DNA of 64,000 nt from a virus. Positions 48 through 50,822 of the stretch are shown in pieces (the stretch's first letter is position 1; the number at the start of each line of letters is the position of its first letter). The notes beneath the pieces were generated by a model. That model had not been told where the DNA came from, ran no database searches, and worked only from the letters and a program-made list of their open reading frames with translations. The translations under genes and the position numbers were made by a program. The stretch lies in the IMG/VR virus record IMGVR_UViG_3300035181_001974, one strand, 5' to 3'.

Positions 48-470
48 ATGAGAATCACGCCTCGGCAGGCCGTCCGAATCAACGAGATCATTCAGGAAGA
101 AGTGCAAACGGCGCTGGAAAAGCGCCGTGAGCCCTCGTTCAAGGAAATGGTCAGTGGATTTGACACCGACACGCAGTTGGTCATCCAGGAACGTCTTTCG
201 CAGCTTGTCTTCGAAGAGGCGACCTCGGCGGTCGAGAATTTCCAAAAGAAGGCCTACGCAATCATCGCGGAGGAGACCTACCGGAAGTCTGATGGGTTGA
301 ACCGCATCACTCCTCGGACCCTCAAGGAATCGCTGGAGTACGTTGATGATCTCGAAGATCTCCGCGCAAATATTACCGTTGAGATCAGCTCGCGGTTGAA
401 CGACCTGTCAGACGGCATCTACGAGGCCGTGGCTTCTGTCATTGACCACAACGATTCAGAGGAACTGTGA
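48..470 (+). CDS. hypothetical protein (may begin upstream of window)
   Basis: 140-aa ORF in the co-directional gene array; no recognisable motifs. Confidence 0.3.
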   Translation: MRITPRQAVRINEIIQEEVQTALEKRREPSFKEMVSGFDTDTQLVIQERLSQLVFEEATSAVENFQKKAYAIIAEETYRKSDGLNRITPRTLKESLEYVDDLEDLRANITVEISSRLNDLSDGIYEAVASVIDHNDSEEL

Positions 471-826
471 TGAAGATCAAGTTGGGAACCCTACGTCGCC
501 TGATCCGCGAAAGTGTCATCTCCGAAGTCGGACTGTCGCCGGCGCTCTTTCGTGCCGGCAACACTGCCGTCAAGGATCCTCTCGAGTCGCAGAACATTTC
601 GCAGGCCTTGGGCAACCTCGAGCGCCACTTCAGTAATTCTGTGATGCATGCACTGCTGTTGGCACACGCCGACAAGTACGACGAGGGCTCACGTGAATTT
701 GACGATGCGACCTACGAGCAGTTGAAGCAGGCCGCCGAGGGCGCGACTGAGACCATGATGTCGCAGGTCGGTAGCGCGGTCAAGGGCGCCTGGGCTCGTG
801 CTCTGAAGGGCAAGTCGGAGTCCTGA
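467..826 (+). CDS. hypothetical protein with conserved N-terminal leader motif (MMKIKLGTLRRLIRES)
   Basis: 119-aa ORF; start overlaps upstream stop (ATGA); N-terminal motif shared with 826, 16120, 35035-38094(-), 50223, 52683, 42213. Confidence 0.45.
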   Translation: MMKIKLGTLRRLIRESVISEVGLSPALFRAGNTAVKDPLESQNISQALGNLERHFSNSVMHALLLAHADKYDEGSREFDDATYEQLKQAAEGATETMMSQVGSAVKGAWARALKGKSES

Positions 827-1089
827 TGAAGGTTCGTCTGGGAGATCTGAGGCAGATCATCTGCGAGGAGTTCATGCGCGGCGTCCCAGAGTTCATGGTG
901 CGTCAGGCGACGGACGACTGCACTGATCGGATCCGCCAGCACGTCAAGCGGTTCATCCAGCTTCGCGCTGAGAATCCGTCACAGGCCCGTGAGTTGATGC
1001 AGATCGCCAACAAGACACTGGCTGAGCTCGACGAGAAGATGTACGCTGTGGCTGAAGACGCCCTCTGGCAATTCATCCAGCAGACGTGA
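826..1089 (+). CDS. hypothetical protein with conserved N-terminal leader motif (MKVRLGDLRQIICEEF)
   Basis: 87-aa ORF, start overlaps previous stop; same N-terminal motif family. Confidence 0.45.
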   Translation: MKVRLGDLRQIICEEFMRGVPEFMVRQATDDCTDRIRQHVKRFIQLRAENPSQARELMQIANKTLAELDEKMYAVAEDALWQFIQQT

Positions 1090-3910: not shown

Positions 3911-4372
3911 ATGCTCTCTCAATTTCTCGAATTTTTCAAGCGGACCTTCTGGTCACCCAAACCTCAGGCTCGAGTCATCGAAGTCAAGCCAGAGGATGAG
4001 AAGTTTCGCCCGCAGCGCAGAAATCGATGGGTCCTTGCAATCGAAGGTCTGGACACGTTCCTCGTTAAGAGCGCTCAGCTGCCGATGCTTTGGGCCGCAG
4101 CAGACCGCCAGTCATTCTTGACAGCGCAGTTTTACGAGATCGAAGGGCAATCGATCTACTCACAGTTTCAGGAGTGGTGTCAAGAGAAGAAGTCGCGCCA
4201 AGCCGTCTTCAAGTTCATCAATGCCGCCGGCAGCGCGACTGAAGTATGGACCATGACAGTCAAGCCACTGCACGCCACACCGCAGTTTCTTGACTACGGC
4301 GACCCGTCTCCCGTTATCACTGAGGTGGTGATGCAGGTCGAGAACATTCGCGTCGAAGTCACTGACGCTTGA
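3911..4372 (+). CDS. hypothetical protein
   Basis: 153-aa ORF. Confidence 0.35.
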   Translation: MLSQFLEFFKRTFWSPKPQARVIEVKPEDEKFRPQRRNRWVLAIEGLDTFLVKSAQLPMLWAAADRQSFLTAQFYEIEGQSIYSQFQEWCQEKKSRQAVFKFINAAGSATEVWTMTVKPLHATPQFLDYGDPSPVITEVVMQVENIRVEVTDA

Positions 4373-4628
4373 ACTTGATGCCCTTCATCACAAAGTAGGT
4401 TGAGATCAAGTCAAGCGCGTCAGACCAGTCGTTTTTGTCTTTGGCCTTTTCGACGGCAGTGTCGACCTCTTCCTGAGTGGCCTGCATCTTCTCGCCTGCC
4501 CATAGCAACATGTCGATGAATGCGTCGGCCTGCTTCTTGTCCTTGGGGACCTGCAGGTTGACAGGCGCCTCGCTCAGCATGATTTCGCTGATGAACTCAC
4601 GAAGTAGCGCGAGGGTGGATTTCGACAT
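4359..4628 (-). CDS. hypothetical small protein (only clear minus-strand gene in this region)
   Basis: 89-aa ORF, not overlapped by a stronger plus-strand ORF; convergent with 3911..4372. Confidence 0.35.
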   Translation of the reverse strand: MSKSTLALLREFISEIMLSEAPVNLQVPKDKKQADAFIDMLLWAGEKMQATQEEVDTAVEKAKDKNDWSDALDLISTYFVMKGIKFKRQ

Positions 4629-4720: not shown

Positions 4721-5677
4721 ATGGACTTTGACGTCAAAAAGCGCACAATCCTCTACGTTCGGCACGGTTCTCACGCCTATGGCCTGAACGTCGCCACCTC
4801 TGACGAGGACTTCAAGGGCGTTGCCATCGCTCCCAAGGAGTACTACTTGGGCTTCATGAAGACGTTCGAGCAGGCGGAACACATGGGTTCCAAGAGCGAC
4901 GGCGTCGACTCGGTAACCTATGCCCTCAACAAGTTTGCTAGGCTCGCTGCCGACTGCAACCCGAACATCATCGAGATCCTCCACGTGGCCGACAGGCACG
5001 TGTTGAAGATCGACGAGTTCGGCGAAGAGTTGCGCAGCATCAAGGACGAGTTCTTGTCCAAGAAGGCGAAGTTCACCTTCTCGGGCTATGCCCATGCCCA
5101 GCTGCAGCGCATCAAGACGCATCGCTCGTGGTTGCTCAACCCGCCCAAGGAAGCTCCTTCGAGGAAGTCATTCGGACTTTCCGAGACGAGCAAGGTCTCG
5201 AAGTCGGAGTTGGGTGCCTACGATGCGGCAGTCGCCGACGGGATTGAGCTGGACCTGCCCAAGGACGTGCTGACCCTGTTCACGCGGGAGAAGCAGTATC
5301 AGGCTGCGAAGACGCACTACGACCAGTACGTCAACTGGCTCAAGACTCGGAACCCAGCTCGTGCCGAGCTTGAGGCCAAGTGGGGTTTTGACGTGAAACA
5401 TGGCATGCACCTGATTCGCCTCAAGACCATGGCCGTTGAAATCCTCGAAGACCATAAGGTCTACGTGGACCGTCAGGAACGTGGCGACCGCGAAGAGATC
5501 CTGGCGTATCGCCGGGGCGAGCACGACTACGATGCCCTGATTGAGCGTGCCGATGCACTGGAGAAACGTGCCAACGAGCTCTATGAGACCTCAACCCTGC
5601 GTCGAGAGCCCGACCGTAAGCTCATCGACAAATTCGTGGTGTCGATGACGGAGCGGTACCTGACGCTCCACGGCTGA
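4721..5677 (+). CDS. Pol-beta superfamily nucleotidyltransferase (RlaP-like, RNA-repair associated)
   Basis: N-terminal YVRHGSHAYGLNVATSDEDFKGV fits the nucleotidyltransferase GS...D.D fold motif; sits next to pnkp and near an RNA ligase. Confidence 0.5.
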   Translation: MDFDVKKRTILYVRHGSHAYGLNVATSDEDFKGVAIAPKEYYLGFMKTFEQAEHMGSKSDGVDSVTYALNKFARLAADCNPNIIEILHVADRHVLKIDEFGEELRSIKDEFLSKKAKFTFSGYAHAQLQRIKTHRSWLLNPPKEAPSRKSFGLSETSKVSKSELGAYDAAVADGIELDLPKDVLTLFTREKQYQAAKTHYDQYVNWLKTRNPARAELEAKWGFDVKHGMHLIRLKTMAVEILEDHKVYVDRQERGDREEILAYRRGEHDYDALIERADALEKRANELYETSTLRREPDRKLIDKFVVSMTERYLTLHG

Positions 5678-5693
5678 CAACAAACGCAGCGAA

Positions 5694-5723
5694 TCAATGC
5701 GGGTCAGAGACGGCCCGCATTGA
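5694..5723 (+). terminator. hairpin downstream of 4721..5677 (possible intrinsic terminator)
   Basis: tcaatgcggg / cccgcattga 10-bp perfect inverted repeat with a 10-nt loop, followed by tgttgtg (weak U tract). Confidence 0.35.
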
Positions 5724-5763
5724 TGTTGTGCAAAACAACCATCACAGAGAATAGAGTCAAGGT

Positions 5764-6768
5764 ATGCGTACTCTCGTGATTTTCAAGGGCCTGCCGGGTT
5801 CCGGTAAGTCGACCGAAGCCGCGGCGCTGGTGAAGCGCGAGCCCAAGCGTTGGGTGCGCATCAACCGCGATGATTTGCGCGGCATGTGCGTGGGCCCTGG
5901 CAACAACCCACACGCTCGTGACAACTCTCGTGAGGACCTTGTTCGCTCAATGAAGGAAGCGCTGATGCGTCAGGCCTTCGACGCGGGTTACGATGTCATC
6001 CTGGATGACACGCACCTGGTGCCGATGACCGTCAAGAAGCTGCACGCTGCGGCTGCGAGCTATGGCGACGTCAAGGTCATCGAGAAGGGTGTCAATGTTG
6101 ATGTCAAGACCTGCATCGCTCGCGATGCACAGCGCACCGGGTTCGCTCATGTGGGTGAGAAGATCATCCTTGACATGGCCCGTGGCGCTGGCCTCGACAA
6201 GGGGCGCAAGCTCTCCGACAAGGAGTGCTACTACGAACCGCGGCCGGACTCGTTCCGAGTCATCATCCAGGACGAGAGCCTGCCGAAGGCGATCATGTGT
6301 GACCTCGATGGGACGTTGGCCATCATCGGCAACCGCACGCCATACGATGCGTCGAACTGCGACGAGATCGACAAGCCCAATTGGCCGGTGATCCGAACAG
6401 TCCTGGCGATGCACGCTCAGGGCTACAAGATCATGTTCATGTCGGGCCGCGACCAGAAGTACCGTCCCGAGACGCAGCGCTTCATTGAGAAGTACTGCCG
6501 CGTCGCCAACCCAGCATTCACGCAGGACATGGTGGAGACATCTGCGACCATGCCTATCCCGTACGAGCTGCACATGCGTGGCGAGACTGCGCCCGATCCG
6601 GGAAAGCTCGACCAGCGCAAGGACGCCGTCATCAAGCAGGAGCTGTTCGACAAGTTCGTGGCCGGTAAGTACCACGTGGACTTCGTCCTCGATGATCGCA
6701 ATCAGGTCGTCGACTTCTGGCGCAGCATCGGCCTGACCTGTTTTCAAGTAGCCCCAGGTGCGTTCTAG
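5764..6768 (+). CDS. pnkp: polynucleotide 5'-kinase / 3'-phosphatase (T4 PseT-like)
   Basis: N-terminal Walker A FKGLPGSGKST; C-terminal HAD phosphatase motif MCDLDGTLAI; two-domain layout like T4 Pnkp. Confidence 0.8.
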   Translation: MRTLVIFKGLPGSGKSTEAAALVKREPKRWVRINRDDLRGMCVGPGNNPHARDNSREDLVRSMKEALMRQAFDAGYDVILDDTHLVPMTVKKLHAAAASYGDVKVIEKGVNVDVKTCIARDAQRTGFAHVGEKIILDMARGAGLDKGRKLSDKECYYEPRPDSFRVIIQDESLPKAIMCDLDGTLAIIGNRTPYDASNCDEIDKPNWPVIRTVLAMHAQGYKIMFMSGRDQKYRPETQRFIEKYCRVANPAFTQDMVETSATMPIPYELHMRGETAPDPGKLDQRKDAVIKQELFDKFVAGKYHVDFVLDDRNQVVDFWRSIGLTCFQVAPGAF

Positions 6769-7175
6769 GAGGATTTACGGGTCATCTTCTGGTGGCTGGG
6801 TTCACCGTACTTCGAACAGCGATGAGATTTTCGCATCTTTGCGCGAGTTTTATCGCTGTGTCGTTTTCCTAACATGGGCCGTAACTTGCTGAAAGTAATG
6901 CGTTGTTCACGTGCTTTCTGTCGATCTTCTTCGCTAAAATTGTATGTCAGACCGCGCATGCCTTTGTTCCACTGAGTCTTTCCTTTCCGACTCTCACTGA
7001 TTTTGCGGGTTTCCTCGCTACACTGACAACCTTCACGCTGATCACGAAACCGGCGCCGGTCACTGTGGATCAACTTGCACCAAATTGTTGGCGGCAAAAG
7101 TTCGAGATCTCGAAGAACGACTTGCTTCGCTTGAAGACTGGCGACATCGATGAGTCCTGAAAACTGCAAGCGCAT
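6765..7175 (-). CDS. NUMOD3-repeat DNA-binding protein (homing-endonuclease-like remnant?)
   Basis: three NUMOD3-like repeats (CSEETRKISESRKGK, FSEEDRQKAREQRITFSK, GKRHSDKTRAKMRKSH); no catalytic nuclease motif recognisable. Confidence 0.4.
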   Translation of the reverse strand: MRLQFSGLIDVASLQAKQVVLRDLELLPPTIWCKLIHSDRRRFRDQREGCQCSEETRKISESRKGKTQWNKGMRGLTYNFSEEDRQKAREQRITFSKLRPMLGKRHSDKTRAKMRKSHRCSKYGEPSHQKMTRKSS

Positions 7176-7381
7176 CCAGGAAGCCGTGAAGGAGGCGGGA
7201 GCCCACCTCGACGGGAAGCTTCCGCTTCATCCCGGACTCGCGAAGCGTAACTCTTATGCTCACCTCTGGGAACGCATCAAGTCAACGAAGGGGAAGAGCT
7301 ACAAGGACTGCGGAGACGATGAGGTCGATGAGATCCTCACCATTGTGAAGCATTACCGCGACAACCCCTGCTGAGGATGCC

Positions 7382-7711
7382 ATGCCGAAGAAGTACATGG
7401 ACGATTACAACTACCACGACTGGACGCAGTTCATGGTCGATCGTCCTGAGAAGAAGCCCAAGGGTCCGCATTTCGCTGCCGTCCTGTTCGACACCCGGAC
7501 GGAGTGGATGCCGGCCTACGATTCTCACGATAGCGATTCATCGTCGACGGTGCCTGACATTCACTACTTTGCCTTCCCTGACAAGGAAACGCTCGGTGAG
7601 TGGGTCCTACGTGCGGCCAGGGACAAGAAGAACTTTTTCTTTTTCGAGGTCAGACAGTTGGGTAATGCACAACTGCAGGTCAGCGTCGACCTGGGTCTCG
7701 GTAGCTCGTAG
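7382..7711 (+). CDS. hypothetical protein
   Basis: 109-aa ORF; overlapping 7377..7847 frame is low-complexity and likely spurious. Confidence 0.35.
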   Translation: MPKKYMDDYNYHDWTQFMVDRPEKKPKGPHFAAVLFDTRTEWMPAYDSHDSDSSSTVPDIHYFAFPDKETLGEWVLRAARDKKNFFFFEVRQLGNAQLQVSVDLGLGSS

Positions 7712-8450
7712 ACCACGTGCTACGGCAGCGGCTACGATCCCTACAAGTGAAATCGAGGATGAGGCTCTTCGCGATCTTCTGCTAGGGACAATACGTGTAG
7801 GAAGCACGCAGTTCCTGGTCGGGTGGCGGCCTCGCGTGGATGTCTGATCACAAGCGCGCTTGGCTCTATACGACAGAGCAAGAATACAAGCGTCACCTTG
7901 GAATGGCTGCGAGCACCTGTGACGACTAGGGACCCTGGCCGGAGATCCACGAGTTCGAGATCACCCACGTCCAGACGATCGACGTCTCCGAGAGGCTGGC
8001 AAAGAATCGCTTTCGCTATCGAAATGCCGAGGCGACACGCAATGCCTATCGGCAGAAGCTCCGGCAGTTTGAGGATGCTCAACGCGTGGCATTCCTCGAG
8101 GATGAACTACGTTGGGCAAAAGAGTGCGCGGGTATGTAACTTCACGATTCAGTGGAATAGAATTGTAACATGTTGAAGTGCGGTGACCAGGTCAAGATGA
8201 CCGAGGAGTTCAAGGTGATTCTTCGTGGGCAGTGCACTCCGTGAAATCACAAGGGACTTCGAGGTCCTGCCGATTCAGAGCTGCCCGACGAGGGCTGCAT
8301 TTCCTGCTCGACCTCACGCGTAGATGAGTTCGGCGAGTGTCTTGGCATCGTCGGTGACTTTACGTATGAGGATGCGAAAGACTTCGTTGACGTTCGCTTG
8401 CAATCCAGCGGCCTGCGCTACGGATACGAACAGAAACATCTGGTGAAGCT

Positions 8451-9338
8451 ATGAGCGAGATGAAAAAGTTCCCGCGCACAAGACACATTCGTGGTTCGCG
8501 GTTCCAACATGGGGACGACGACCTCGAGGCCGTCCCGTGGGAGGAGCTCGCCGGCAAACACCTCCTCATCGAGGAGAAGATCGACGGTGCTAACGTCGGC
8601 ATTTCCTTCGTCGACGGTGAGATGAAGCTACAGTCGCGTGGGCACTACCTTCATGGAGGTCCCCGTGAAAAGCAGTTCGAACTGTTGAAACAGTGGGCAG
8701 CGACACATGAGATGGGTTTGTACGAGATGCTTGGCGAACGCTACGTGATGTACGGTGAGTGGATGTTCGCCTGTCACACGATCTGGTACGACAGGCTACC
8801 ACACTACTTCATGGAGTTCGACGTCTTCGACAGGGAGACCGACACGTTCCTGTCGACACCCGCCCGTGACGAGTTGCTGAGACGCACGTCTGCACCCGTC
8901 AGGATCGTGCCTGTGCGGGTGATCGCAACTGGCCTTGTGTCGGGCGTCGAAGAGCTGAAGTCTATGATCGGCCCGTCTGCGTTTGTGAGCGAGGGAAAGT
9001 CACGTCACAACGACTCGTTGCTGTCGTGCGAGTCTTCGTGGTACGATGCTGTTGTTGTGTGTAACGTCCTGGGTAAGAGGGGACACTACGTGTTCCAGCA
9101 GGACGAGTGGATCGCCAGATGTGAAGAGCTGCGAAAGAAGTACTACGTCGGTCCCACGATGGAGGGCCTCTACGTCAAGTGGGAGAAGGACGGTATCGTG
9201 AAGGGCCGCTACAAGTTCGTGCGTGACGACTTCGTCAGCCACATCGCGGGGCAAGACGAACACTGGCACGACAGACCCATCTTGCAGAACGGCCTGATTC
9301 CAGGTGCGCTGGAGCACATGTTCAGGAGCGACACGTGA
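8451..9338 (+). CDS. rnl: ATP-dependent RNA ligase (Rnl2-like)
   Basis: ligase motif I KxDG in LLIEEKIDGANVGISF; motif IV-like YGEWM; size ~295 aa. Confidence 0.75.
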   Translation: MSEMKKFPRTRHIRGSRFQHGDDDLEAVPWEELAGKHLLIEEKIDGANVGISFVDGEMKLQSRGHYLHGGPREKQFELLKQWAATHEMGLYEMLGERYVMYGEWMFACHTIWYDRLPHYFMEFDVFDRETDTFLSTPARDELLRRTSAPVRIVPVRVIATGLVSGVEELKSMIGPSAFVSEGKSRHNDSLLSCESSWYDAVVVCNVLGKRGHYVFQQDEWIARCEELRKKYYVGPTMEGLYVKWEKDGIVKGRYKFVRDDFVSHIAGQDEHWHDRPILQNGLIPGALEHMFRSDT

Positions 9339-16119: not shown

Positions 16120-16371
16120 GTGAGTAACGACAAGCGAATCTCGCGGATCACTGTCGGACAACTCCGGCGGTCGATCCGCGAGGAGTTTAAGCGGTTGTGC
16201 GAAGCACGTGACTGTTGGGGAGGCTCGCAGCCTGAGGAGACGTACGACCAGTTGCTGGTCGACGATCCTGTTTACGCCGAGCGCAGCGTATACGTGCCTG
16301 ATGATATCAAGGACGCCATCAAAAAGTGGATGGTGGCCATGGGGCTCGATGGCCGCAAACGCTCGCGTTGA
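16120..16371 (+). CDS. hypothetical protein with N-terminal leader-like motif (ITVGQLRRSIREEF)
   Basis: 83-aa ORF. Confidence 0.4.
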   Translation: MSNDKRISRITVGQLRRSIREEFKRLCEARDCWGGSQPEETYDQLLVDDPVYAERSVYVPDDIKDAIKKWMVAMGLDGRKRSR

Positions 16372-16407: not shown

Positions 16408-17559
16408 ATGCGATTGAGGCTGCAAGAGCTACAGAGGGTCGTCGATCGGACCTTGGCCGAAGAAAAGGCTGTCGATGCCCTCCGTCAGGAAGTGTCCCGG
16501 GTGCTAGGTCCATCCGTTCTGACGAACGTCAAGTTGGACCAGCTGGCCGAGGGCGCCAACGATCGGATCAGCGTGCTGGAGCGAACTGGCCGTGAGTCAC
16601 AGATCAACTTCAAACCTGCTGTGATGTTGAAGTTCGCTGATAGCGCGTCAGTCGAGGCCCGCGTGCTTGCGGCCAGGACGCTGCCGGAGCGGTACGTTGC
16701 TCGGATGCGCGGTGACAAGAGCGCCGCTGTTCGTCACGCAGTCGCTCGCCGGTTGCCTGCGAGCCTGGTCAAGGAGATGCTGAAGCGCACGCCCAATGAC
16801 GATGCACTTCGTGTCATCTTCCACGACAAGAAGTTGACAGAGGCCGGCCTGGCCACTCCCGACAAGAAAGACGAACCGTTTGACATGTACGGCGAAGAAC
16901 CGTTGGGCGACACCGTCAAACAGGACGGCGCGGCCACTGACGAGGGCCTGAGCGACGCCTGGTACGAGACAACGGCACACAAGTTCATTCAGGACTATGG
17001 CGGCAATATCGAAGGACAATGGGAAGAGCCTGTCGTTCACAGGTTCTGTGCTTCGTCGAAAGCCACGTCAGGCGTGGAAATCGACGAGAAGAAGCTCTAC
17101 AAAGAGATCATGAAGCAGCTTAAGGAGAAGGACGATCGGACTCTGGAACGCTATGCGTTGAAGGAGATCGCCCAGTCACTTCGTGAAGGCCTCGAGCCTG
17201 AGCTGCCGCAGCTCTTCTCAGAAGCGGTTGACCCGTTGGAAACGCTGCTGCACTCAGACGTCTCGGCCGCAGAGTACGTCAAGCAGGCCAACAAGCTGTT
17301 CAATGTCCGCGAGTCAGTGATGCCCAAGTCGCTACGCAAGTTTCGCGTTACGGAAGGACTCTCGGGTGATATCAAGATCCCATGCTTGGCCCGAGTGCCT
17401 GGCAACGGCAACGTCTCGCGGTTGGCGGAACGTGCCCTCGACCTCTACGTCAAGAACTGGAACATGCTTCAAGCGATGAACGGCGAGCCCGTCAGGATCA
17501 ACTGGTCGACAAATCCTACTAAGGCAGGAATGATTTCGTTCAACGCTGAGTTGAGGTGA
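16408..17559 (+). CDS. hypothetical protein (helical repeats)
   Basis: 383-aa ORF, N-terminus MRLRLQELQRVVDRTLAEE weakly resembles leader motif. Confidence 0.4.
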   Translation: MRLRLQELQRVVDRTLAEEKAVDALRQEVSRVLGPSVLTNVKLDQLAEGANDRISVLERTGRESQINFKPAVMLKFADSASVEARVLAARTLPERYVARMRGDKSAAVRHAVARRLPASLVKEMLKRTPNDDALRVIFHDKKLTEAGLATPDKKDEPFDMYGEEPLGDTVKQDGAATDEGLSDAWYETTAHKFIQDYGGNIEGQWEEPVVHRFCASSKATSGVEIDEKKLYKEIMKQLKEKDDRTLERYALKEIAQSLREGLEPELPQLFSEAVDPLETLLHSDVSAAEYVKQANKLFNVRESVMPKSLRKFRVTEGLSGDIKIPCLARVPGNGNVSRLAERALDLYVKNWNMLQAMNGEPVRINWSTNPTKAGMISFNAELR

Positions 17560-22362: not shown

Positions 22363-22446
22363 AACTCAACTAAGTTTACCTGATCCTCGTCAAATGTCTA
22401 TTAGACAGGGATCTCAAGGCTTACATGAAGAGAGCGAACGCATATC

Positions 22447-22944
22447 ATGAAGCTCAGAAGTAAGACTGTCGTACCGTATAAGGGTGAGGTCGTAGACCTG
22501 TGTGTGGAAAACAGCCACACTTACAACGTGGAAGGTATTGCAGTCCACAATTCGGGCGGTGGCTCTCTGGTCGCCTACGTCCTATACATCACCGACTTGG
22601 ACCCGTTGTTCTGGGACCTGCCTTTCGCGCGATTCCTTAGCGTTCACAGGTGTCTGTCGCCAGACACAAAGGTATTGATGTCAGATGGTTCGTCGTCCGC
22701 GCTTCGAGACGTGAAAGTCGGTGACAGCGTTGTCTCACAGGATGGCTCACACCGTAAAGTTACGTTCACCATGACCACAAAACATGAGAAGACGTACCGC
22801 GTGAAGGTGAATGGTACTACGTTCACGTGTTCTGAAAATCATGTGTGGTTGACAGTGGGTCCTGATGGACAACCTGTGAAGAAGTATACATCTGAGCTGT
22901 CGACGAGTGACGAGCTGTACACGTACCACTATGAGCATCATTGA
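22447..22944 (+). CDS. dnaE: C-intein 1 (22447..22551) + extein 2 (22552..22650) + N-intein 2 (22651..22941)
   Basis: [35 protein letters not shown]|[33 protein letters not shown]|[13 protein letters not shown]... Confidence 0.8.
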
Positions 22945-23872
22945 GAAACAGTGTAAACACTGTGGTATTATGTTTCAGTTCAACTATGAGCCCAACTGCA
23001 AGGGTTCTGGTAGTAGGCTCCATCGCCCGTACTGCACTGATGAGTGTGCCGTCGCTCACAGGAAGCTGATGTCACACGCTCCCATGCCCTCGAGGCTTGT
23101 GAAGACGTGCGTCGAGTACGGCGATGAGTTCTACGTTCCAAAGTGTCACAACAACAGAAAACTATGTTCGAATGCGTGCAGGCACAAGTACACTGCGAAA
23201 GCGCTGACAAAGAATGAGCTCCGTACACTGACATGTGTACAGTGTCTAGGCACTTTCTCAACGAAGAACGTCAATCGCAGGTTCTGTTCACCCAAATGTT
23301 TCGCTGCATCGAGGTTTGACCGCCACACGTTGGTATGCGAAGTTTGTAGCGAACCGATCGTCACCAAGAAGAGCTACGTGCCGCGGTTCTGTTCCAAACG
23401 GTGCACCCGCGAGGCACAGTCACGTGATATGGTTGCTTCACATGTGAACGGACGCTCGTGTTTTCGTTCCGACATCCTAAACAGCCCGTACTTCAAGAGC
23501 TCGTTCGAAGCCGACTACTACAGATATTGCTTGCACCTCGGTAAGATGCCATTCTATGAACATAGGTCTTTCCATGTTGTCATCGATGGCAAAGAGAAGT
23601 GTTACACTCCAGACTTTTGGTTCAGTGATGAGGACCGATACGTGGAGTTGAAAGGTGTGCGAGAAGGCAAATCGCGTTTCTCAAAGTTGCTTAACTCAAA
23701 CGCACGTTCACGGGAAGTCGTTGTGGCGTCTGGTCAGCGCATCGACGTCGTGTACATGAATGACTTCTATGGTGAACTTCGTCGACAAGGTTTGTACCAT
23801 ACGATTGCCAATCTAGAGCACAGGGACTATGCAGGAACCCAACATCTCATCAGCAAGCACGGCCAAAATTGA
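22907..23872 (+). CDS. free-standing homing endonuclease (multi CxxC zinc-ribbon + PD-(D/E)xK core) between halves of intein 2
   Basis: six or more CxxC pairs; C-terminal [17 protein letters not shown] = PD..(D/E)xK motif; nested between N- and C-intein 2. Confidence 0.65.
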
Positions 23873-29087: not shown

Positions 29088-29105
29088 AAGTACCTTTACA
29101 AAGAC

Positions 29106-30624: not shown

Positions 30625-30630
30625 AACCAG

Positions 30631-31093: not shown

Positions 31094-31094
31094 T

Positions 31095-34564: not shown

Positions 34565-35038
34565 ATGACGAGGGCGTGCCCAACGCGGACGCACTCCGAC
34601 AGTGGGCCGAGGCTTGGGAAGCCGCTGAACAACAGTGGGAAGAGACGATGGAGAGGACGGAGCGCGACAACAGGTGCCTCGAGGAAGAAAGGATCGCAGA
34701 TGAGTCGACGCGGCATCGTGATAACGCTACAGGTCTCTCTCCCAACTTGGGATAAAGAAAAGAACCAGTGGATGTTGCCTCCTCCCAGCGTTAAGCTGGC
34801 GCGGAAGCTACGCATGGCCCTCAGCAATGACATGACAGAAGCCTCGGAGGAAGAGATCGAGGCGTATGCCGTCCAGCTAGCTGAGGACTTCAAGAAAGAA
34901 GTCACGCTTGATGAGTGGAGTGGATTTTTCCGCGGGATCATCGAGCGAGTTCGTGACTATGATCGCGAGGGTCACGAGCGACGTGCTAGATTTAGCAACA
35001 TCTCCCCGGGCATCGGCAACCGCAAGGACGACGTTTAG
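34565..35038 (+). CDS. hypothetical protein
   Basis: 157-aa ORF; overlapping alternative frames make the start uncertain. Confidence 0.3.
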   Translation: MTRACPTRTHSDSGPRLGKPLNNSGKRRWRGRSATTGASRKKGSQMSRRGIVITLQVSLPTWDKEKNQWMLPPPSVKLARKLRMALSNDMTEASEEEIEAYAVQLAEDFKKEVTLDEWSGFFRGIIERVRDYDREGHERRARFSNISPGIGNRKDDV

Positions 35039-38000
35039 CCGTCAATCGGCTCCCAGATCTGGCTGTGATCCGAGTCAGCCTTCTTGACCTTGAGCTTGCC
35101 GTCGTCCGTCTTGGAAATGACTGCCTGCTCACCGGCCGAGAACTGCGTGTCTTGTCCGGCCACGTAGGCTTGACCTTTCAATCGCGTCGCGGCCGGGTGA
35201 CCTTTGAATCGGCCGTAGATTTTGTAGGTCGTCTTCGGACCCTTGGCTGCCGTGGGCTCAATCGCTGCAGCTGCGGCGGGCGCGGCAGCTGTTGCCTTCG
35301 ACGGCGGCGACTTCTTAATCGGCGGCGCCACGTTTTCTGGTGCATTTTCCTCACGGGCGCCCGAGGCCGTCGTCATCAACGGGAATGCGGTCAACAGGTA
35401 CCTGTCGCCATACTTGACCATCGCCATGTTGTACGGGTGACCACCGCTACCCGGAGCATGGACAGCCTTGACGTATGTGACCTCGGCACCGCGCTTCAAG
35501 GCAACCTGAGGTAGGTTCTTGGTGTACGTCTCACGGCCATTCGGGCTCGTGAACTTCCAGTAGACCGCGCCCTTGGTGCGCATCCTGGACGCACGGCTGC
35601 GATTCGGTGACAACTTCGTGTACTTGCCACCGCGGATGACGGGCTCGGAAGAGTAACGATTGACCTCGATCTCTTCACTTTCGATCTCGTCATTTTCGCG
35701 GCCGGTGATGTCAAAAGCCGAGACATCATTGCTGATGTAGTACGTCCTGCCCGGGCGTGCGCCGGCCGAGCCGACCTCAGAGCGCCTTGGCTCAACGCTG
35801 CCACGAACCTTGTTCAGGGCATGCATGGCAGCAGCCGCGCCCGCGGGCGTCAGCTGGAACAGCGCGCCCTTGTCGATACCCGGCGGTGCCCAGTACCAAG
35901 CTGAGCCGCTGGCATTGATGCCTCGCACGGGTTCCTTGCCGTGTTGAGTGCTCTTCCACAAATCGTGGCGTCGAACCAGGCGACCCATCCAGTCAAACCA
36001 TGCTGACTCGATTTCTTCGCGGGTGGCGTGGCCGTTGTTCTGCAGCAAGAAGATGACAATGAACTCGTCAGACTTGAGAGACTTTGTCGAGATGTCGCGC
36101 CAGGAGGGATTCATGATGTCCTGGTTCTCGTTTTCGTCGCTGAGCTCTTCCAACAAGATCCTACGCATGCCCATCGCAGCCTTGACATAGGCCTCAGCGA
36201 CCTTTAGGGACTTCAGAGTCTTGCGAGCGACCCTCCTGACGAAGTTGTCGCTGTCTTTGGTCAAGGCCTGCAGGACATCGTTGCCGACAGCGGCATTTGA
36301 CGCGGCAGCCGCGCGGATGGCGACGGCCTCATCGCGGGATAGCTGTTTCAGAACATTAACGGGCGTGTTGGGGTTAGCAGCCACCGCGGCCCGCGTAGAA
36401 GTCGACTCATCACCTGCGAGGACAGCTAGGTCCTCCTTGGGCGTGACCGGATTGTGGGCCACCGCAAAGCGGTAGGCGTGATTCTTGCTGAGGGCGAACT
36501 TGCTGGCATTTGACGCTCCGATCGACGGGTTCTGCAATAGCGCCGTCCTGATGTCGGGCGTGACCGACTTCCACAACAACTCGACAGTGTCAGAGTCGAT
36601 GTTCGACTGCTTCAACAACTTGATCAAGAACTGCGTCGACAACTTGTCACGGAGCTTAACGATCAAGGCACCTAGGTGAGCCGGTGGCAGGTTGGGTGCC
36701 TTCATGATGTTCTTCAGGTCGTATTCGTCAGTGACGGGGATCAACATGAGCTGCTCGGGCGTCAAGTTCAGTTCGTCAATGTGTCTCAACACCTGACCTG
36801 CGACGACGTGGTAATGTGAAGCAGAGCTGCTTTCCACGGCTTCCTTGAACTGCTCAAGCGTGTAGCGCCCGCTTTTGATCAAGGCCCACCATGCATCGTG
36901 TTTTGCCATGTCATTCTTGAAGTTCGGAATGACCTTAACGATCTCGTCCTTCAATGCGTCAGGAGCGCGTGGATTCTCCATGATGGCCGCGATGACGGCC
37001 TCGTTGCCGCTCTTCACCAACTGCGTGAAGTTCTCTTCTGTCAGGTTGGCATGTTCGATGGCCCGCTTGATGTAGTAGCTGTTGCCGCCATCGCCGATCT
37101 TCTGAATGAAGAACATCGCCGCATCGGGCGTCAAGTTGCCGATGTTGTCGCTGAGCGCATACATCAAGAATGAAAGCATGTACTTGTCTTCTCCGGTCTC
37201 GACCTTCTTCGCCGCGAGATCATAGACCTTCTGCACCACCCGCAACGTCATCTTGGCACTCTTGGCGATTTTTTGTAGCGCCTGCGAAGACACGTCTTTG
37301 CCCGCCATCAGGTCATTGACATGCTCCTCAACCGCGCGTTGTTCGTCCTCAACCTCACGGGTCAGTGGGACCTTCTTGACGTGAGCCTCAATCTTTGACC
37401 AGATTGCCGGCCACTCGACGCCCACGTGTTTAGCAACTGTCGATACCGGGACTCGTTTGTCAGAGGCATCGTAGGCCTCATTATTGCGGCCCGCCTCGTC
37501 ACGAATGACGATGGCGTACTTGGAACTCGGAGGCGGGGGTGTGGTCTGCAACTGCGTCTTGTCAATGACGAAGTAGAACTTGTTGTTGCTGGTTGAATAC
37601 GTCGAGAAGTAGTTGTGGCTCGTGGTCGCTGCAATGCACCACTTGGTTCCGATGCCGTACTTGCAGGAGGCTCCCATGGTGTGAGGACGGATGACCAACC
37701 AGTGATCATCATTGTAGATCACGTCAGAATCAGCCTTGGCCTGCTTGGACTCCTGGCTCTTCGACTTGCCACCCAAGGCCTGGACAGCGGTCTCGATGGC
37801 GCTGGGATCTTCATACTGGTTGATGTCCTTCTTCTCGAGTCGCTGCTTGTTGCCGTCGAACAATCGCATGTTCTGGACGACGACGTTGACTGAAAAGCCA
37901 TCGTCGACCTGCTTGGCACACCACATCAGGTACTTGTTGTTGGACCCTTGCGGCTGATTCTCGACTAGGTCATCGAAGTCCTCGTCGGAAATGTCAGGGT

Positions 38001-38094
38001 ACCGTTCACGGGCGTCTTCTATGCGGCCTTCGACGAGAATCTCAACGTAGCTTTCTAGGATTGACTCGCGCAATGTGCCCAGGGTGACCTTCAT
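35035..38094 (-). CDS. large (1019 aa) protein: N-terminal leader motif, central HEAT/ARM-like repeats, C-terminal domain shared with 52683..54134
   Basis: starts MKVTLGTLRESILESYVE; repeats such as VRAAVAANPNTPVNVLKQLSRDEAVAIRAAAASNAAV; C-terminal TYKIYGRFKG...DGKLKVKKADSDHSQIWEPI. Confidence 0.6.
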   Translation of the reverse strand: MKVTLGTLRESILESYVEILVEGRIEDARERYPDISDEDFDDLVENQPQGSNNKYLMWCAKQVDDGFSVNVVVQNMRLFDGNKQRLEKKDINQYEDPSAIETAVQALGGKSKSQESKQAKADSDVIYNDDHWLVIRPHTMGASCKYGIGTKWCIAATTSHNYFSTYSTSNNKFYFVIDKTQLQTTPPPPSSKYAIVIRDEAGRNNEAYDASDKRVPVSTVAKHVGVEWPAIWSKIEAHVKKVPLTREVEDEQRAVEEHVNDLMAGKDVSSQALQKIAKSAKMTLRVVQKVYDLAAKKVETGEDKYMLSFLMYALSDNIGNLTPDAAMFFIQKIGDGGNSYYIKRAIEHANLTEENFTQLVKSGNEAVIAAIMENPRAPDALKDEIVKVIPNFKNDMAKHDAWWALIKSGRYTLEQFKEAVESSSASHYHVVAGQVLRHIDELNLTPEQLMLIPVTDEYDLKNIMKAPNLPPAHLGALIVKLRDKLSTQFLIKLLKQSNIDSDTVELLWKSVTPDIRTALLQNPSIGASNASKFALSKNHAYRFAVAHNPVTPKEDLAVLAGDESTSTRAAVAANPNTPVNVLKQLSRDEAVAIRAAAASNAAVGNDVLQALTKDSDNFVRRVARKTLKSLKVAEAYVKAAMGMRRILLEELSDENENQDIMNPSWRDISTKSLKSDEFIVIFLLQNNGHATREEIESAWFDWMGRLVRRHDLWKSTQHGKEPVRGINASGSAWYWAPPGIDKGALFQLTPAGAAAAMHALNKVRGSVEPRRSEVGSAGARPGRTYYISNDVSAFDITGRENDEIESEEIEVNRYSSEPVIRGGKYTKLSPNRSRASRMRTKGAVYWKFTSPNGRETYTKNLPQVALKRGAEVTYVKAVHAPGSGGHPYNMAMVKYGDRYLLTAFPLMTTASGAREENAPENVAPPIKKSPPSKATAAAPAAAAAIEPTAAKGPKTTYKIYGRFKGHPAATRLKGQAYVAGQDTQFSAGEQAVISKTDDGKLKVKKADSDHSQIWEPIDG

Positions 38095-42212: not shown

Positions 42213-43007
42213 ATGAAGAAGTCAGAGCTTGTTCAAATGATCCGTGAAGAGGTACTCGCCGTCGTAGCCAACCTCATGGAGGCCGCTGCAGCGCCTCCGA
42301 AGTCATTTTCCGAGTTTCGCAAGGCATTTGCCATGGCGCTCGAACAGGCCGGTGCGCCGGATGATCTCGTCGACGAGGCCCTCGATGAGGATTACGAAGG
42401 TGGGCCCATCTTCGGCGCGATTTACGAGGCGTGGACCAATATCGAGGCCGAGATGTCTGGCATCCGTGATCCTGCAGAACGCCATGATACGTGGCTCGAT
42501 ATGGTCGAGTTCTACGTTCACGATGCAGTTCTTGACATGGCGGACAGTTACTTCAACGCCATGAACTATGCCCCAGGTCACAGGCCCGCAAAGTTCGATC
42601 CGAAGGCACTGGCAACGGCCGTCGTTTCCGTGATGTCGGGTTCGAAGACAACTGCTCTCATCAAGAAGGCTCCGAAGACGCTGACTGAGGTCGTCAATGC
42701 TGTGCGTGAGGCCATACGCCTCAAGGGGACGAAGGTCACCTGTTCGCCCATGCCGGATGCAAAGACGTTGAAGACGAAGTGCAGTATGATGGTTCCGCCC
42801 GAGCAGTGCATGAAAGTGTCAATATATCTTGATGAGGTCATGATAAAGCTTGGATTTGAGTCCTCGATCGAGGATCCTGCTGCGATCCTAGCAGACACTT
42901 CCGATGAGGGTTTGTTTGCCGACTACACCAGCCCGTCAATTCGTGGTGTCTTGGATGCTGACCCTGTCCGGGGTACCATCTTTTTGTCGCTAAACACGAC
43001 CCGTTGA
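42213..43007 (+). CDS. hypothetical protein with N-terminal leader-like motif (MKKSELVQMIREEVL)
   Basis: 264-aa ORF; upstream GGTAATAATTACC. Confidence 0.4.
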   Translation: MKKSELVQMIREEVLAVVANLMEAAAAPPKSFSEFRKAFAMALEQAGAPDDLVDEALDEDYEGGPIFGAIYEAWTNIEAEMSGIRDPAERHDTWLDMVEFYVHDAVLDMADSYFNAMNYAPGHRPAKFDPKALATAVVSVMSGSKTTALIKKAPKTLTEVVNAVREAIRLKGTKVTCSPMPDAKTLKTKCSMMVPPEQCMKVSIYLDEVMIKLGFESSIEDPAAILADTSDEGLFADYTSPSIRGVLDADPVRGTIFLSLNTTR

Positions 43008-50226: not shown

Positions 50227-50822
50227 TGGACAGAAAGATCAGGATCAAGGTCGGCGATCTGAAGCGAATCCTCCGCGAGGAATTTCTACGTGAGGCCGGC
50301 GGCAATGATCCCACGGCCGGTAAGGAACCTGAGCGTGAGGACGGCGAGGACTCTGTCGACGCGCAGATCGATCGTTACCTCGGAGAATACGAGAGCGAAG
50401 CCAAGTCCGCCAAGACCGAAGGCAAGGACTGGCGTCGCGCGGTCCGGCGCATTGTCGAGGCCGGCGATGACGAGGGTGACAATGAAGGTGGCGATGATGA
50501 GTTCGGCCTCGGCGACGAAGGCAGCGACGCGCCCTCGAAGCCCGGCGTCGATTCCATCGACATGGACTCTTATGCCAATTCTGTGATGCGCCTGATCGAC
50601 AACGCCGCGTCACTGTTGGAGTTGCGCAACACATTGCTCCGTCGAGCGGCCAACTTCCTGGGCAAGAACTATGCCCCAGAAGTCGTAGAGGCGTTCAAGG
50701 AGAACCTGCGTTCTGAGCACGGCATCGAGATCGGTAAGTCGCCTGAAGAGGCAGCCGACGATGAGTTCCCGGCTCCCGCCGCCGCCCGAGCTGGGGGTGG
50801 TGCCGGAGGCGCTCCCGCATGA
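50223..50822 (+). CDS. acidic protein with N-terminal leader motif (RIKVGDLKRILREEFLRE)
   Basis: 199 aa, Asp/Glu-rich middle, Gly/Ala-rich tail. Confidence 0.45.
   Translation: MMDRKIRIKVGDLKRILREEFLREAGGNDPTAGKEPEREDGEDSVDAQIDRYLGEYESEAKSAKTEGKDWRRAVRRIVEAGDDEGDNEGGDDEFGLGDEGSDAPSKPGVDSIDMDSYANSVMRLIDNAASLLELRNTLLRRAANFLGKNYAPEVVEAFKENLRSEHGIEIGKSPEEAADDEFPAPAAARAGGGAGGAPA

What the first reader, a model, noticed from the sequence alone, without database searches (positions are those of the whole stretch)
467..520. Family of at least 8 unrelated proteins sharing an N-terminal leader ending in an (I/L)xE site: candidate capsid-targeting/propeptide signal
Starts of ORFs 467 (MMKIKLGTLRRLIRES), 826 (MKVRLGDLRQIICEEF), 16120 (RITVGQLRRSIREEF), 35035..38094 on minus (MKVTLGTLRESILESY), 50223 (RIKVGDLKRILREEF), 52683 (TVTEEAIREMVREVL), 42213 (SELVQMIREEVL) and 16408 (RLRLQELQRVVDRTL) share the pattern hydrophobic-K/R-hydrophobic-G/x-x-L-R/K-x-x-I/L-x-E-E. 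Sizes range from 83 to 1019 aa and the rest of the sequences are unrelated. T4 internal proteins carry a ~10-aa capsid-targeting sequence removed by the prohead protease at (L/I)xE. The same logic here would mark these as proteins packaged into the head and possibly injected, including a 1019-aa HEAT-repeat protein.
Basis: partly seen in the sequence, partly recalled or inferred. Interest (0 to 1): 0.65.

Follow-up and report, generated by a model that had tools for sequence, protein, structure and literature searches.

The report
Shared head-targeting leader on phage proteins
Several otherwise unrelated proteins of this uncultured T4-like giant phage start with the same 16-residue tag, which most likely directs them into the assembling virus head and is then cut off, so the tag could flag proteins that the phage carries into its host.

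Summary
Five ORFs (470, 826, 16120, 50223 on +; 38094 on -) start with M-K-[IVL]-x-[LV]-G-x-L-[RK]-x-x-[IL]-x-E-[ES]-h. The motif occurs nowhere else in the six-frame translation, and codons vary synonymously. The other three named ORFs are only weak matches. The tag is a local form of a very common N-terminal motif (consensus MKITKxQLKQIIKEEL). It gave over 1000 metagenomic proteins and at least 120 IMG/VR stretches, often in arrays. Contigs carrying orthologues of window genes, and a strict-leader contig, encode a T4-type head module: Portal_T4, Peptidase_S77 (gp21 family, cuts after L/I-x-E) and Gp23 capsid protein. Conserved small proteins inside that module carry the same motif. In one complete 484-kb relative, 15 of 18 leader ORFs lie in the structural gene block, several flanking the protease gene. 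The 1019-aa protein shares a domain with a mass-spectrometry-confirmed PA5oct virion protein. Best reading (about 0.6): a prohead-core targeting propeptide that works like the T4 capsid-targeting sequence but is unrelated to it in sequence. Cleavage and packaging are inferred, not shown, and the window's own protease gene was not seen.

The parts
470..517 (+). Leader 1: MKIKLGTLRRLIRESV, first 16 codons of ORF 470-826 (118 aa). Its ATG overlaps the stop of ORF 48-470 (TGATG).
   Evidence: 17.1 bits with an HMM trained without window sequences
470..826 (+). Leader-bearing ORF, 118 aa, no known family
826..873 (+). Leader 2: MKVRLGDLRQIICEEF, start of ORF 826-1089 (87 aa)
   Evidence: 13.8 bits. 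The family is conserved with its leader in P0004, P0007, P0008, P0013, P0016 and L012.
826..1089 (+). 87-aa leader-bearing protein. The AF2 model shows a confident helical hairpin (residues 22-86) with a low-confidence, detached leader helix (residues 5-16).
16141..16188 (+). Leader 3: SRITVGQLRRSIREEF, offset 7 residues from the GTG start of ORF 16120-16371 (83 aa)
   Evidence: 10.5 bits; orthologue in L005 starts MKIRLGALREFIREAL
50238..50285 (+). Leader 4: IRIKVGDLKRILREEF, offset 5-6 residues from the start of ORF 50223-50822 (199 aa, very acidic tail)
   Evidence: 7.1 bits; tail net charge -21
38047..38094 (-). Leader 5: MKVTLGTLRESILESY, start of the 1019-aa ORF 35035-38094
35035..38094 (-). 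1019-aa leader-bearing protein. Residues 51-167 resemble PA5oct gp205 (virion protein by MS) and an ORF in the structural region of L102. It has LRV repeats and a C-terminal 70-residue domain shared with ORF 52683.
4578..4628 (-). Weak candidate leader MSKSTLALLREFISEIM of ORF 4359-4628 (89 aa)
   Evidence: 3.5 bits; not significant alone
16408..16455 (+). Weak, degenerate leader MRLRLQELQRVVDRTL of ORF 16408-17559 (383 aa). It lacks Glu at position 14.
   Evidence: 3.0 bits; L005 orthologue starts MQLKLDALQKVVKDTL
42213..42257 (+). Weak candidate, second half of the motif only: MKKSELVQMIREEVL, ORF 42213-43007
   Evidence: 1.7 bits
52683..52739 (+). Weak candidate, second half of the motif only: MSKVTVTEEAIREMVREVL, ORF 52683-54134 (483 aa). 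It shares a domain with the 1019-aa protein.
   Evidence: 2.0 bits
3911..4372 (+). Paralogue of the T4 gp19-type tail tube protein. It is one of the links between the window and the T4-like clade.
   Evidence: E 9e-10 to the tube protein of L037/L004, which hits Pfam Phage_T4_gp19 at 27.8 bits, just under the 28.2-bit curated cut-off

Best explanation
The 16-residue N-terminal segment is M-K-[ILV]-[TRK]-[LAV]-[GS..]-x-L-[RK]-x-[ILV]-I-[RK]-E-[EA]-h. I read it as a prohead-core targeting propeptide of a large clade of uncultured T4-like phages.

Proposed mechanism: the amphipathic leader makes a protein co-assemble with the scaffolding core. The core's own conserved small proteins, and the N-terminus of the capsid protein, carry the same motif. 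Once the shell closes, the gp21-family (Peptidase_S77) prohead protease cuts after the nearly invariant Glu14 of the I-x-E site. This frees the mature protein inside the head, from where it may be ejected into the host with the DNA.

Shown here: the motif exists, is specific to N-termini and is selected at the peptide level. It is abundant and occurs in arrays. It is linked to T4-type head and tail gene blocks and to S77 proteases on the same contigs.

Inferred: binding to the core, cleavage at Glu14, presence in virions and injection.
For: 1. Motif statistics in the window.

2. Profile of 63 distinct leaders from the window-type loci. L8 is found in 63/63, R/K9 in 62/63, I12 in 59/63 and E14 in 60/63. 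Conservation stops after position 16. Of 281 further leaders, 275 have I12 and 278 have E14, and 263 of 298 hits start at Met1. The best-kept residues are therefore those of an I-x-E site. T4 gp21 cuts after L/I-x-E (PMC9026906).

3. The lineage has the matching protease. Contigs 3300005529_000001 and 3300016471_001002 carry orthologues of the window's 706-aa protein (59% and 51% identity in the best segment). They also carry Portal_T4, Peptidase_S77 (86.8 and 96.1 bits) and Gp23. The strict-leader contig 3300044641_009805 (L007) does too (L231, 99.3 bits).

4. The same motif sits on conserved head-module proteins. One family lies 1-2 genes after the protease (M-A-K-L-T-K-x-x-L-K-x-h-V-K-E-C-L-V-E-I-L-A-E-G-L, 33 distinct sequences). 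A second reads KLTxxxLKRIIxEE (27 distinct sequences; most lie between the protease and capsid genes, a few elsewhere in the loci). A third lies between TerL and portal. Leader ORFs also follow the capsid gene directly.

5. Arrays of 2-7 leader ORFs lie between or around the sheath and tube genes.

6. Of 118 loci found through the motif alone, 37 hold TerL, 33 the portal and 21 the S77 protease.

7. In the complete 484-kb genome LR756508.1 there are 18 leader ORFs (2 in the shuffle). Fifteen lie in the 141.9-227 kb structural block, which is 17.7% of the genome. Five of them flank the protease gene. My own binomial arithmetic gives about 3e-9.

8. The 1019-aa protein resembles PA5oct gp205, annotated as a structural protein by ESI-MS/MS. 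It also resembles an ORF in the structural region of L102.

9. AF2 places the leader as a separate, low-confidence helix (pLDDT about 55) on a confident core (about 90).

10. T4 precedent. gp67 MEGLIE|A, gp22 MLKEQLIAE|A, gp24 MAKINELLRE|S, Alt MELITELFDE and gp23 FLTE|A all carry short N-terminal h-x-E propeptides (the bars mark motif-conforming positions that I placed; PMC9026906 documents only the L/I-X-E rule, a Glu-Ala bond in gp22 and LIE-9 in gp21). The 10-19-residue CTS of the internal proteins is sufficient for packaging (PMC9026906; PMC3012670).

11. Predicted capsid-protein maturation sites in the clade read (Q/E)(L/V)L(R/K)E|x. They resemble the leader's second half.
Against: There is no proteomic or biochemical evidence for cleavage, packaging or ejection.

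The window's own protease and capsid genes lie outside the 64 kb plus 10-kb flanks, so that link rests on relatives.

In the window the leader genes lie among nucleotide-metabolism and replication genes. ORFs 48, 470 and 826 are translationally coupled just downstream of a ribonucleotide reductase gene. T4 alt also lies outside the head cluster, so this is weak counter-evidence.

The residue after the putative cut is mostly Glu, not the Ala, Ser or Thr seen at the T4 sites read here. Conservation continues to a hydrophobic residue at position 16, and much further in the post-protease family, as expected for a helix that stays functional.

The leader has no sequence similarity to the T4 CTS.

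Expression timing is unknown. The T4 late promoter TATAAATA is absent even upstream of the capsid genes of this clade.
Confidence: 0.6

Rival explanations
1. Permanent docking helix. The leader is a virion-assembly motif that is not removed. It would be an amphipathic N-terminal helix that anchors proteins to the scaffold, core, shell or tail lumen by helix-helix contacts and stays on the mature protein.
For: Conservation runs past the putative scissile bond to a hydrophobic position 16, and in the post-protease family through ECLVEILAEGL. Arrays lie between the sheath and tube genes, so a tail location is conceivable. Some proteins carry two leader copies in tandem, which suits avidity for a lattice. 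ORF 16408 and its L005 orthologue keep the motif but lack Glu14.
Against: The most invariant residues include exactly I12 and E14, the gp21-type site. The S77 protease is encoded on the same contigs. In T4 every comparable N-terminal h-x-E segment read here belongs to a protein known to be processed (PMC9026906). Sequences after the leader are often linker-like.
Confidence: 0.17
2. The signal is not a virion signal. The leader could deliver proteins to a chaperonin, as reported for the N-terminus of T4 gp23. It could be a degradation or regulatory tag read by the phage's two HslV/proteasome-like peptidases (45247-46401). Or it could be a generic membrane- or nucleic-acid-binding amphipathic helix.
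For: In the window the leader genes sit among replication and nucleotide-metabolism genes. A related contig encodes what reads like a GroEL-type chaperonin, judged from its N-terminal sequence only (L011). The window encodes two proteasome-like peptidases. The capsid-protein N-terminus resembles the leader, and the reference list of PMC3012670 cites a 2005 paper on gp23 N-terminal targeting to GroEL. The leader has a net charge of about +3.
Against: This does not explain the concentration of leader genes in the structural block of a complete genome (15 of 18). It also does not explain the conserved leader-bearing genes next to the S77 protease or the virion-protein homology of the 1019-aa protein. 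Most carriers are about 100 aa and partly disordered, so they are unlikely chaperonin clients.
Confidence: 0.12
3. Direct shell binding of the encapsulin type. The first half of the G-type leader (h-x-h-G-x-L-R/K-R) would bind a pocket on the inner face of the HK97-fold capsid protein, as cargo-loading peptides do in encapsulins. It would not bind the scaffold core.
For: The native M. xanthus targeting peptide PLTVGSLRRGG (PMC7925596) scores 16.3 bits on the PSSM of leader positions 3-10. That is about 1e-6 per random 8-mer. In the window proteome only 5 of the 17,629 8-mers reach that score, a count that equals the number of strict leaders. Window leader 3 reads ITVGQLRR.
Against: The encapsulin family consensus LGIGSLKG/RG scores -2.6 and 0.1 bits, and the T. 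maritima peptide scores below zero. Gly6 is absent from the far more common KLT-type leaders. The targeting peptides described in that paper are C-terminal (PMC7925596). The comparison was chosen after the fact from a handful of peptides.
Confidence: 0.08
4. Chance resemblance, a nucleic-acid-level element (a shared translation-initiation region or recombination cassette), or a remnant of common ancestry of paralogues.
For: Short motifs rich in L, R, I and E are common in helices. Leader genes occur in arrays that could arise by duplication.
Against: The strict motif occurs 5 of 5 times at ORF starts and never internally. Shuffles give 0. Codons differ synonymously and upstream DNA is unrelated. 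The peptide is kept across loci of 30-63% G+C. The tails have no detectable similarity, apart from one shared domain.
Confidence: 0.03

Closest known systems
[quoted passage not shown]
   Same: A short N-terminal leader on otherwise unrelated, mostly small proteins. It ends in hydrophobic-x-Glu, the gp21 cleavage motif. The phage encodes a gp21-family protease. Carrier genes are diverse and scattered through the genome (PMC9026906, PMC3012670).
   Different: The sequence is unrelated: T4 Alt starts MELITELFDE, against MKIxLGxLRRIIREA here. The leader here is 16 residues, longer than the 10 residues shown to be sufficient for IPIII, and has a basic amphipathic character. There are many more carriers: 5 or more in 64 kb, up to 10 per roughly 10-kb locus, and 18 in one genome. 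Tandem double leaders occur. The residue after the cut is usually Glu. Nothing has been shown experimentally.
N-terminal propeptides of T4 prohead core and shell proteins (gp22, gp67, gp21, gp24, gp23 delta region)
   Same: Conserved head-module proteins next to the protease gene carry the same type of N-terminus as the accessory cargo. In T4, gp22 MLKEQLIAE|A and gp24 MAKINELLRE|S are of the same h-h-x-E kind (bars placed by me from the motif).
   Different: The small head-module proteins of this clade have no Pfam or PHROG match and no detectable homology to gp22, gp67 or gp68.
Propeptides of phiKZ, 201phi2-1 and SPN3US head and ejection proteins
   Same: Many head-internal and ejected proteins are processed after Glu by a distant gp21 relative in giant phages (PMC9026906; PMC5694885 listed).
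   Different: Their motif is S/A-x-E with no other determinants. Here the P3 residue is Ile or Leu, and a full 16-residue consensus is kept.
Encapsulin family-1 cargo-loading (targeting) peptides, e.g. M. xanthus PLTVGSLRRGG
   Same: A short peptide that loads diverse cargo into an HK97-fold shell. The G-type leaders match h-T-V-G-x-L-R-R closely.
   Different: Those described are C-terminal and are not known to be removed (the latter from my own knowledge). The family consensus does not match. Most leaders of this clade lack the Gly.
Genomic setting of the bS21-encoding huge phages and Microcystis phage Mel-JY01
   Same: The same head-module layout (TerL, T4 portal, S77 protease, hypothetical genes, bS21, scaffold, Gp23). 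Late co-transcription of the protease with its downstream hypothetical gene is reported (PMC9723584).
   Different: In the passages I searched, that paper does not describe an N-terminal motif. Mel-JY01 itself has only degenerate versions of it.

Membership tests
T4-type capsid targeting sequence / gp21-processed N-terminal propeptide (functional class) | Short leader at the extreme N-terminus of otherwise unrelated proteins | tested here: met
   All 5 strict matches are at ORF starts. Of 298 hits in other loci, 263 start at Met1. Tails are unrelated apart from one shared domain.
T4-type capsid targeting sequence / gp21-processed N-terminal propeptide (functional class) | Leader ends in the gp21 cleavage motif L/I-x-E | tested here: met
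   I12 in 59/63 and E14 in 60/63; 275/281 and 278/281. Motif definition from PMC9026906.
T4-type capsid targeting sequence / gp21-processed N-terminal propeptide (functional class) | Genome encodes a gp21-family (Peptidase_S77) prohead protease with a T4-type portal and Gp23 capsid protein | tested here: inconclusive
   Met on contigs of relatives that also carry orthologues of window genes or strict leaders. Pfam Peptidase_S77 scores are 86.8, 96.1 and 99.3 bits, and L160 also has Gp23 and Portal_T4. The window's own genome could not be read beyond 10 kb on either side.
T4-type capsid targeting sequence / gp21-processed N-terminal propeptide (functional class) | Association with the prohead core (scaffold and core proteins) | tested here: met
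   By gene context only. The same motif is found on conserved small proteins between TerL, portal, protease and capsid genes. In a complete genome, 15 of 18 leader ORFs lie in the structural block.
T4-type capsid targeting sequence / gp21-processed N-terminal propeptide (functional class) | Leader is removed by the protease, and the mature protein is found inside virions and ejected | not testable with these tools
   This needs virion proteomics or protease assays. The only indirect support is the homology of the 1019-aa protein to the MS-detected PA5oct gp205.
T4 CTS (sequence family) | Sequence similarity to the T4 internal-protein / Alt leaders | tested here: not met
   By eye, the T4 N-termini read (e.g. 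Alt MELITELFDE, gp22 MLKEQLIAEA) share only the terminal h-x-E with the leader consensus. The leader is not a sequence homologue.
phiKZ-like propeptides | Cleavage motif S/A-x-E with a small residue at P3 | tested here: not met
   P3 is Ile or Leu in over 94% of leaders. Motif as given in PMC9026906.
Encapsulin family-1 targeting peptide | Match to the family consensus (D-G-S-L-G-I-G-S-L-K/R-G) with a conserved GSL | tested here: not met
   The consensus peptides score -2.6 and 0.1 bits. Only the M. xanthus native peptide matches, at 16.3 bits. Gly6 is absent from most leaders.
Encapsulin family-1 targeting peptide | C-terminal position on the cargo protein | tested here: not met
   Leaders are N-terminal. 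C-terminal position as described in PMC7925596.

The most novel reading that the evidence does not exclude
The tag would be a portable address label that defines a large, fast-evolving packaged and injected proteome, with tens of cargo proteins per genome, gene arrays in hyperplastic regions and double tags. This would hold across a globally distributed clade of uncultured T4-like phages. In addition, the G-type first half (h-T-V-G-x-L-R-R) would bind the inner face of the HK97-fold capsid protein in the way encapsulin cargo-loading peptides bind their shells. That would link phage internal-protein loading and encapsulin cargo loading, mechanistically or by descent.
Probability: 0.1. Interest if true: 0.85.

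Novelty: new variant of a known kind. Interest (0 to 1): 0.62.

Why it matters
If the tag marks head-packaged proteins, a simple sequence rule would predict the injected proteome of hundreds of uncultured large phages from marine, freshwater and other metagenomes. In T4, proteins delivered this way include a restriction-enzyme inhibitor (IPI) and a host RNA-polymerase modifier (Alt). The tagged set is almost entirely without known families, so it would be a focused list of candidate anti-defence and take-over effectors.

It would also show that the T4 'CTS plus gp21' logic is an old and expandable system rather than a peculiarity of the T-even phages. And it would supply a new 16-residue tag for loading foreign proteins into capsids. 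I found no description of the motif in the searchable literature.

Tried and rejected
- Megablast of 25 kb against cultured phages gave no match. tblastn of consensus leaders against 50,697 phage records gave nothing for the G-type. The KLT-type gave only the uncultured 484-kb record LR756508.1.
- Pfam and PHROG searches of leader-bearing proteins and of the small head-module proteins gave essentially nothing: one PAP2 domain, plus the LRV and PHROG hits of the 1019-aa protein.
- A word-index search with the G-type leader profile returned only 3 hits.
- Cluster look-ups returned no informative names or isolates.
- Walking out of the window to find its own head module was not possible, because look-ups are limited to window proteins. 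The flanks contain dUTPase, exonuclease, DnaB and ribonucleotide reductase on one side, and lysozyme and a C1 peptidase on the other, but no head genes.
- The idea of a DNA- or RNA-level element was rejected because of synonymous codon variation.
- A ribbon-helix-helix N-terminus was considered. I rejected it by inspection: the strand-helix spacing differs, and the tails are unrelated and often disordered.
- The T4 late promoter TATAAATA was tested as a timing marker. It is present upstream of 0.6% of leader genes, 0.5% of controls and 0% of capsid genes, so it is uninformative for this clade.
- The PDB sequence search of the 1019-aa protein gave nothing.
- The encapsulin resemblance holds for one peptide only.
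Full report
**What the window is.** The 64 kb has 54.8% G+C, no tRNA genes and no close relative among 50,697 cultured phage records. It encodes phage-type replication and nucleotide-metabolism genes. These include a DnaE-type polymerase broken up by inteins, two large homing-endonuclease-like genes and two HslV/proteasome-like peptidases, as well as ThyX, thymidylate kinase and RNA-repair enzymes. Identical genes occur on metagenomic contigs from several samples, some of them in the 0.2-1 Mb size class. It is therefore part of a large uncultured phage genome.

**The observation.** Each occurrence lies within 5-19 residues of an upstream stop, that is at the start of an ORF, and there is no internal occurrence. 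The five ORFs are 470-826, 826-1089, 16120-16371 and 50223-50822 on the + strand, and 35035-38094 on the - strand.
- A degenerate nucleotide version has 2 matches against 0.00 expected.
- The five leaders use different synonymous codons, and their upstream DNA is unrelated, so the peptide is what is conserved.
- An HMM trained only on leaders from other contigs scores four of the five at 7-17 bits. Shuffled proteomes give 0.05 hits of 6 bits or more.
Singly this is not significant. However, weak N-terminal hits as a group are far more frequent than in shuffles: 9 against 0.65.
- Two further clear members lie just downstream of the window, in L016.
- The tails are unrelated apart from a 70-residue domain shared by the 1019-aa and 483-aa proteins.

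**The motif is widespread.**
- A roughly 38-bit degenerate DNA pattern found 14 IMG/VR contigs of up to 324 kb. In all of them, even the unconstrained positions follow MKI(K/R)LGxLRRIIRE(A/E).
- The loci around those hits contain more leader ORFs, including a second form, MKLTxxQLRxIIREE.
- A profile made from the five window leaders alone retrieved 15 proteins at E < 1e-3 from 1.84 billion representatives. All 15 start at residue 1, apart from second copies in proteins that carry two tags in tandem.
The 118 loci that could be read hold 298 leader ORFs, 263 of them starting at Met1, with up to 10 per locus. The median protein length is 107 aa and the consensus is MKITKRQLKQIIKEELEKVL.
- The word-index search returned 1046 proteins with E ≤ 1, among them Tara Oceans and Pacific Ocean Virome sequences.
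- In both sets the invariant residues are L8, R/K9, I12 and E14, and conservation ends at position 16.
- I found no mention of these strings in the searchable literature. Papers on capsid targeting sequences deal mainly with T4, its vaccine and vector uses, P1 and SPN3US.

**Link to a T4-type head.**
- One strict-leader gene (L004) lies between a gp18-type sheath gene and a gp19-type tube gene, with a T4 baseplate gene nearby.
- The closest isolate by sheath is Microcystis phage Mel-JY01. Its head module is TerL, Portal_T4, Peptidase_S77, bS21, scaffold and Gp23.
- Relatives found through the sheath show arrays of 2-7 leader ORFs between or around the sheath and tube genes.
- Relatives found through the capsid protein number at least 599 stretches. 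Between the protease and capsid genes they carry conserved small proteins with the same motif at the N-terminus. One family, just after the protease, reads M(A)KLTKxxLKxhVKECLVEILAEGL. Another reads KLTxxxLKRIIxEE. A third lies between TerL and portal.
- An HMM built without these families still finds them: 20 hits of 7 bits or more against 2 in shuffles. All are on the coding strand, and 16 of the 20 lie within 7 residues of an upstream Met.
- The link to the window's own lineage is direct. Orthologues of the window's 706-aa protein lie on contigs 3300005529_000001 (369 kb) and 3300016471_001002 (211 kb). The capsid search returned the same two contigs, as well as the strict-leader contig of L007. 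Pfam confirms Peptidase_S77 on all three, and Gp23 and Portal_T4 on L160.
- The window also holds a gp19 paralogue and shares several genes with these contigs.

**A complete genome.** LR756508.1 (484 kb, uncultured) has its structural genes at 141.9-227 kb. Eighteen ORFs carry the leader at 8 bits or more (2 in a shuffle). Fifteen of them lie in that block, which is 17.7% of the genome, and all 18 are on the + strand, like every structural landmark gene. Five flank the S77 protease gene, and four form an array after the tube gene. My own binomial estimate is about 3e-9. Of the 118 loci found by the motif alone, 37 contain TerL and 21 the protease. A Tara contig shows the same neighbourhood with precomputed Pfam labels.

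**Other support.**
- Residues 51-167 of the 1019-aa protein align with PA5oct gp205, which is annotated as a structural protein by ESI-MS/MS and lies next to the terminase-like ORF. A further homologue lies in the structural region of L102.
- AF2 on the 87-aa family gives a confident helical hairpin (residues 22-86, pLDDT about 90). The leader is a separate helix (residues 5-16) with pLDDT about 55, as expected for a detachable extension.
- By alignment to T4 gp23 (FLTE|AEIGG), the capsid proteins of this clade have a conserved (Q/E)(L/V)L(R/K)E|x site. Their extreme N-terminus also resembles the leader.

**Comparison with what is known.** T4 gp21 cuts after L/I-x-E. The internal proteins carry 10-19-residue propeptides, and the first 10 residues of IPIII are sufficient for packaging. 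In that work, residues 4 and 7 govern targeting and residues 8 and 10 govern processing. The internal proteins of T-even phages are described as diverse proteins that share only the CTS (PMC9026906; PMC3012670). The T4 genome itself shows gp67 MEGLIE|A, gp22 MLKEQLIAE|A, gp21 MNEPQLLIE, gp24 MAKINELLRE|S and Alt MELITELFDE (the bars mark motif-conforming positions that I placed, not sites read from the papers).

The present tag works on the same plan but is not a sequence relative. It is longer and basic, and it is carried by many more proteins. It also occurs doubled. The phiKZ-type motif (small residue-x-E) does not fit. The native M. xanthus encapsulin targeting peptide fits the first half of the G-type leaders strikingly well (16.3 bits), but the encapsulin consensus does not. 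I treat that as a lead only.

**Verdict.** The most likely explanation, at about 0.6, is a prohead-core targeting propeptide removed by the S77 protease. The main rival is the same targeting role without cleavage (about 0.17). Roles unrelated to the virion get about 0.12, direct encapsulin-like shell binding about 0.08, and chance or a nucleic-acid element about 0.03.

The weak points are these. There are no protein-level data. The window's own protease gene was not seen. The window's leader genes are dispersed among metabolic genes. The residue after the putative cut is Glu. Expression timing is unknown, since the promoter test was uninformative.

Noticed in passing
window 20677-34371: The DnaE-type DNA polymerase III alpha gene (PHP domain, Hint/intein signals) appears broken into many ORFs. 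Several start with intein-like ends (e.g. ...VVHNC). They are interleaved with two large homing-endonuclease-like genes (24869-26602 on -, 27288-29087 on +) and other small ORFs.
   Followed up: partly
window 45247-45852 and 45856-46401: Two adjacent paralogous HslV/proteasome-like peptidase genes (PHROG 1040; Pfam Proteasome for the second), both starting MTC(I/V). This looks like a phage-encoded two-subunit proteasome-like protease of unknown role.
   Followed up: partly
window 3911-4372: A paralogue of the gp19-type tail tube protein sits among nucleotide-metabolism genes, far from any tail module (E 9e-10 to the L037 tube protein).
   Followed up: partly
window 35044-35244 (-) and 53712-53918 (+): The 1019-aa and 483-aa proteins share a 70-residue domain (K.TYK.Y...KLKVKK..SDH.QIW.P), 43% identical, E 4e-12. 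Its function is unknown. It ties a strict-leader protein to a weak-leader protein.
   Followed up: partly
proteins P0002, P0009, P0011, P0017, P0018: Some metagenomic proteins carry two copies of the leader in tandem, separated by 3-90 residues. P0011 may be a fusion of two genes in one frame.
   Followed up: no
L039 13068-14340; L041 5441-8285; L051 6695-7733; LR756508.1 219.1-219.9 kb: Hyperplastic arrays of 3-7 small leader-bearing ORFs lie between or around the tail sheath and tube genes. Many of these phages also have two sheath paralogues in tandem.
   Followed up: partly
L160 5850-6377, L161 5792-, L140 5945-: An ORF that reads like a peptide deformylase (judged by eye from its sequence, not scanned) lies inside the head module, between the S77 protease and the leader-bearing core protein. 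L160 also has a homing-endonuclease-like ORF there, and bS21 genes lie in the same module in relatives (PMC9723584).
   Followed up: no
capsid-protein N-termini, L066-L145: The first ~16 residues of the Gp23-type capsid proteins (MSKSFTLNQLTEGIR(D/E)R) resemble the leader (T..QL...IRE). The predicted maturation site QLLRE|x is highly conserved.
   Followed up: partly
window 47005-47457 and 47654-48529: A CCA-adding / poly(A) polymerase-family enzyme is split into two ORFs, with the head domain divided between them. This could be a frameshift, an intron or a real split.
   Followed up: no
window 49245-50226: The Fe/Mn superoxide dismutase ORF (49429-50226, TTG start) probably starts further downstream. 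An overlapping ORF, 49245-49529, begins MKTLTEADVLRIMREEW, which weakly resembles a leader.
   Followed up: no
upstream regions of leader genes in IMG/VR loci: The overlapping 8-mers of ATGAATGGATTAGC occur upstream of about 14 of 353 leader genes, against 3-6 of 2491 control genes. This may be an element specific to one sub-clade. It is unexplained.
   Followed up: no
window 4721-9338: A cluster resembling an RNA-repair module: RlaP nucleotidyltransferase, a PNKP-like kinase/phosphatase and an RNA ligase, followed by a metallophosphatase.
   Followed up: no
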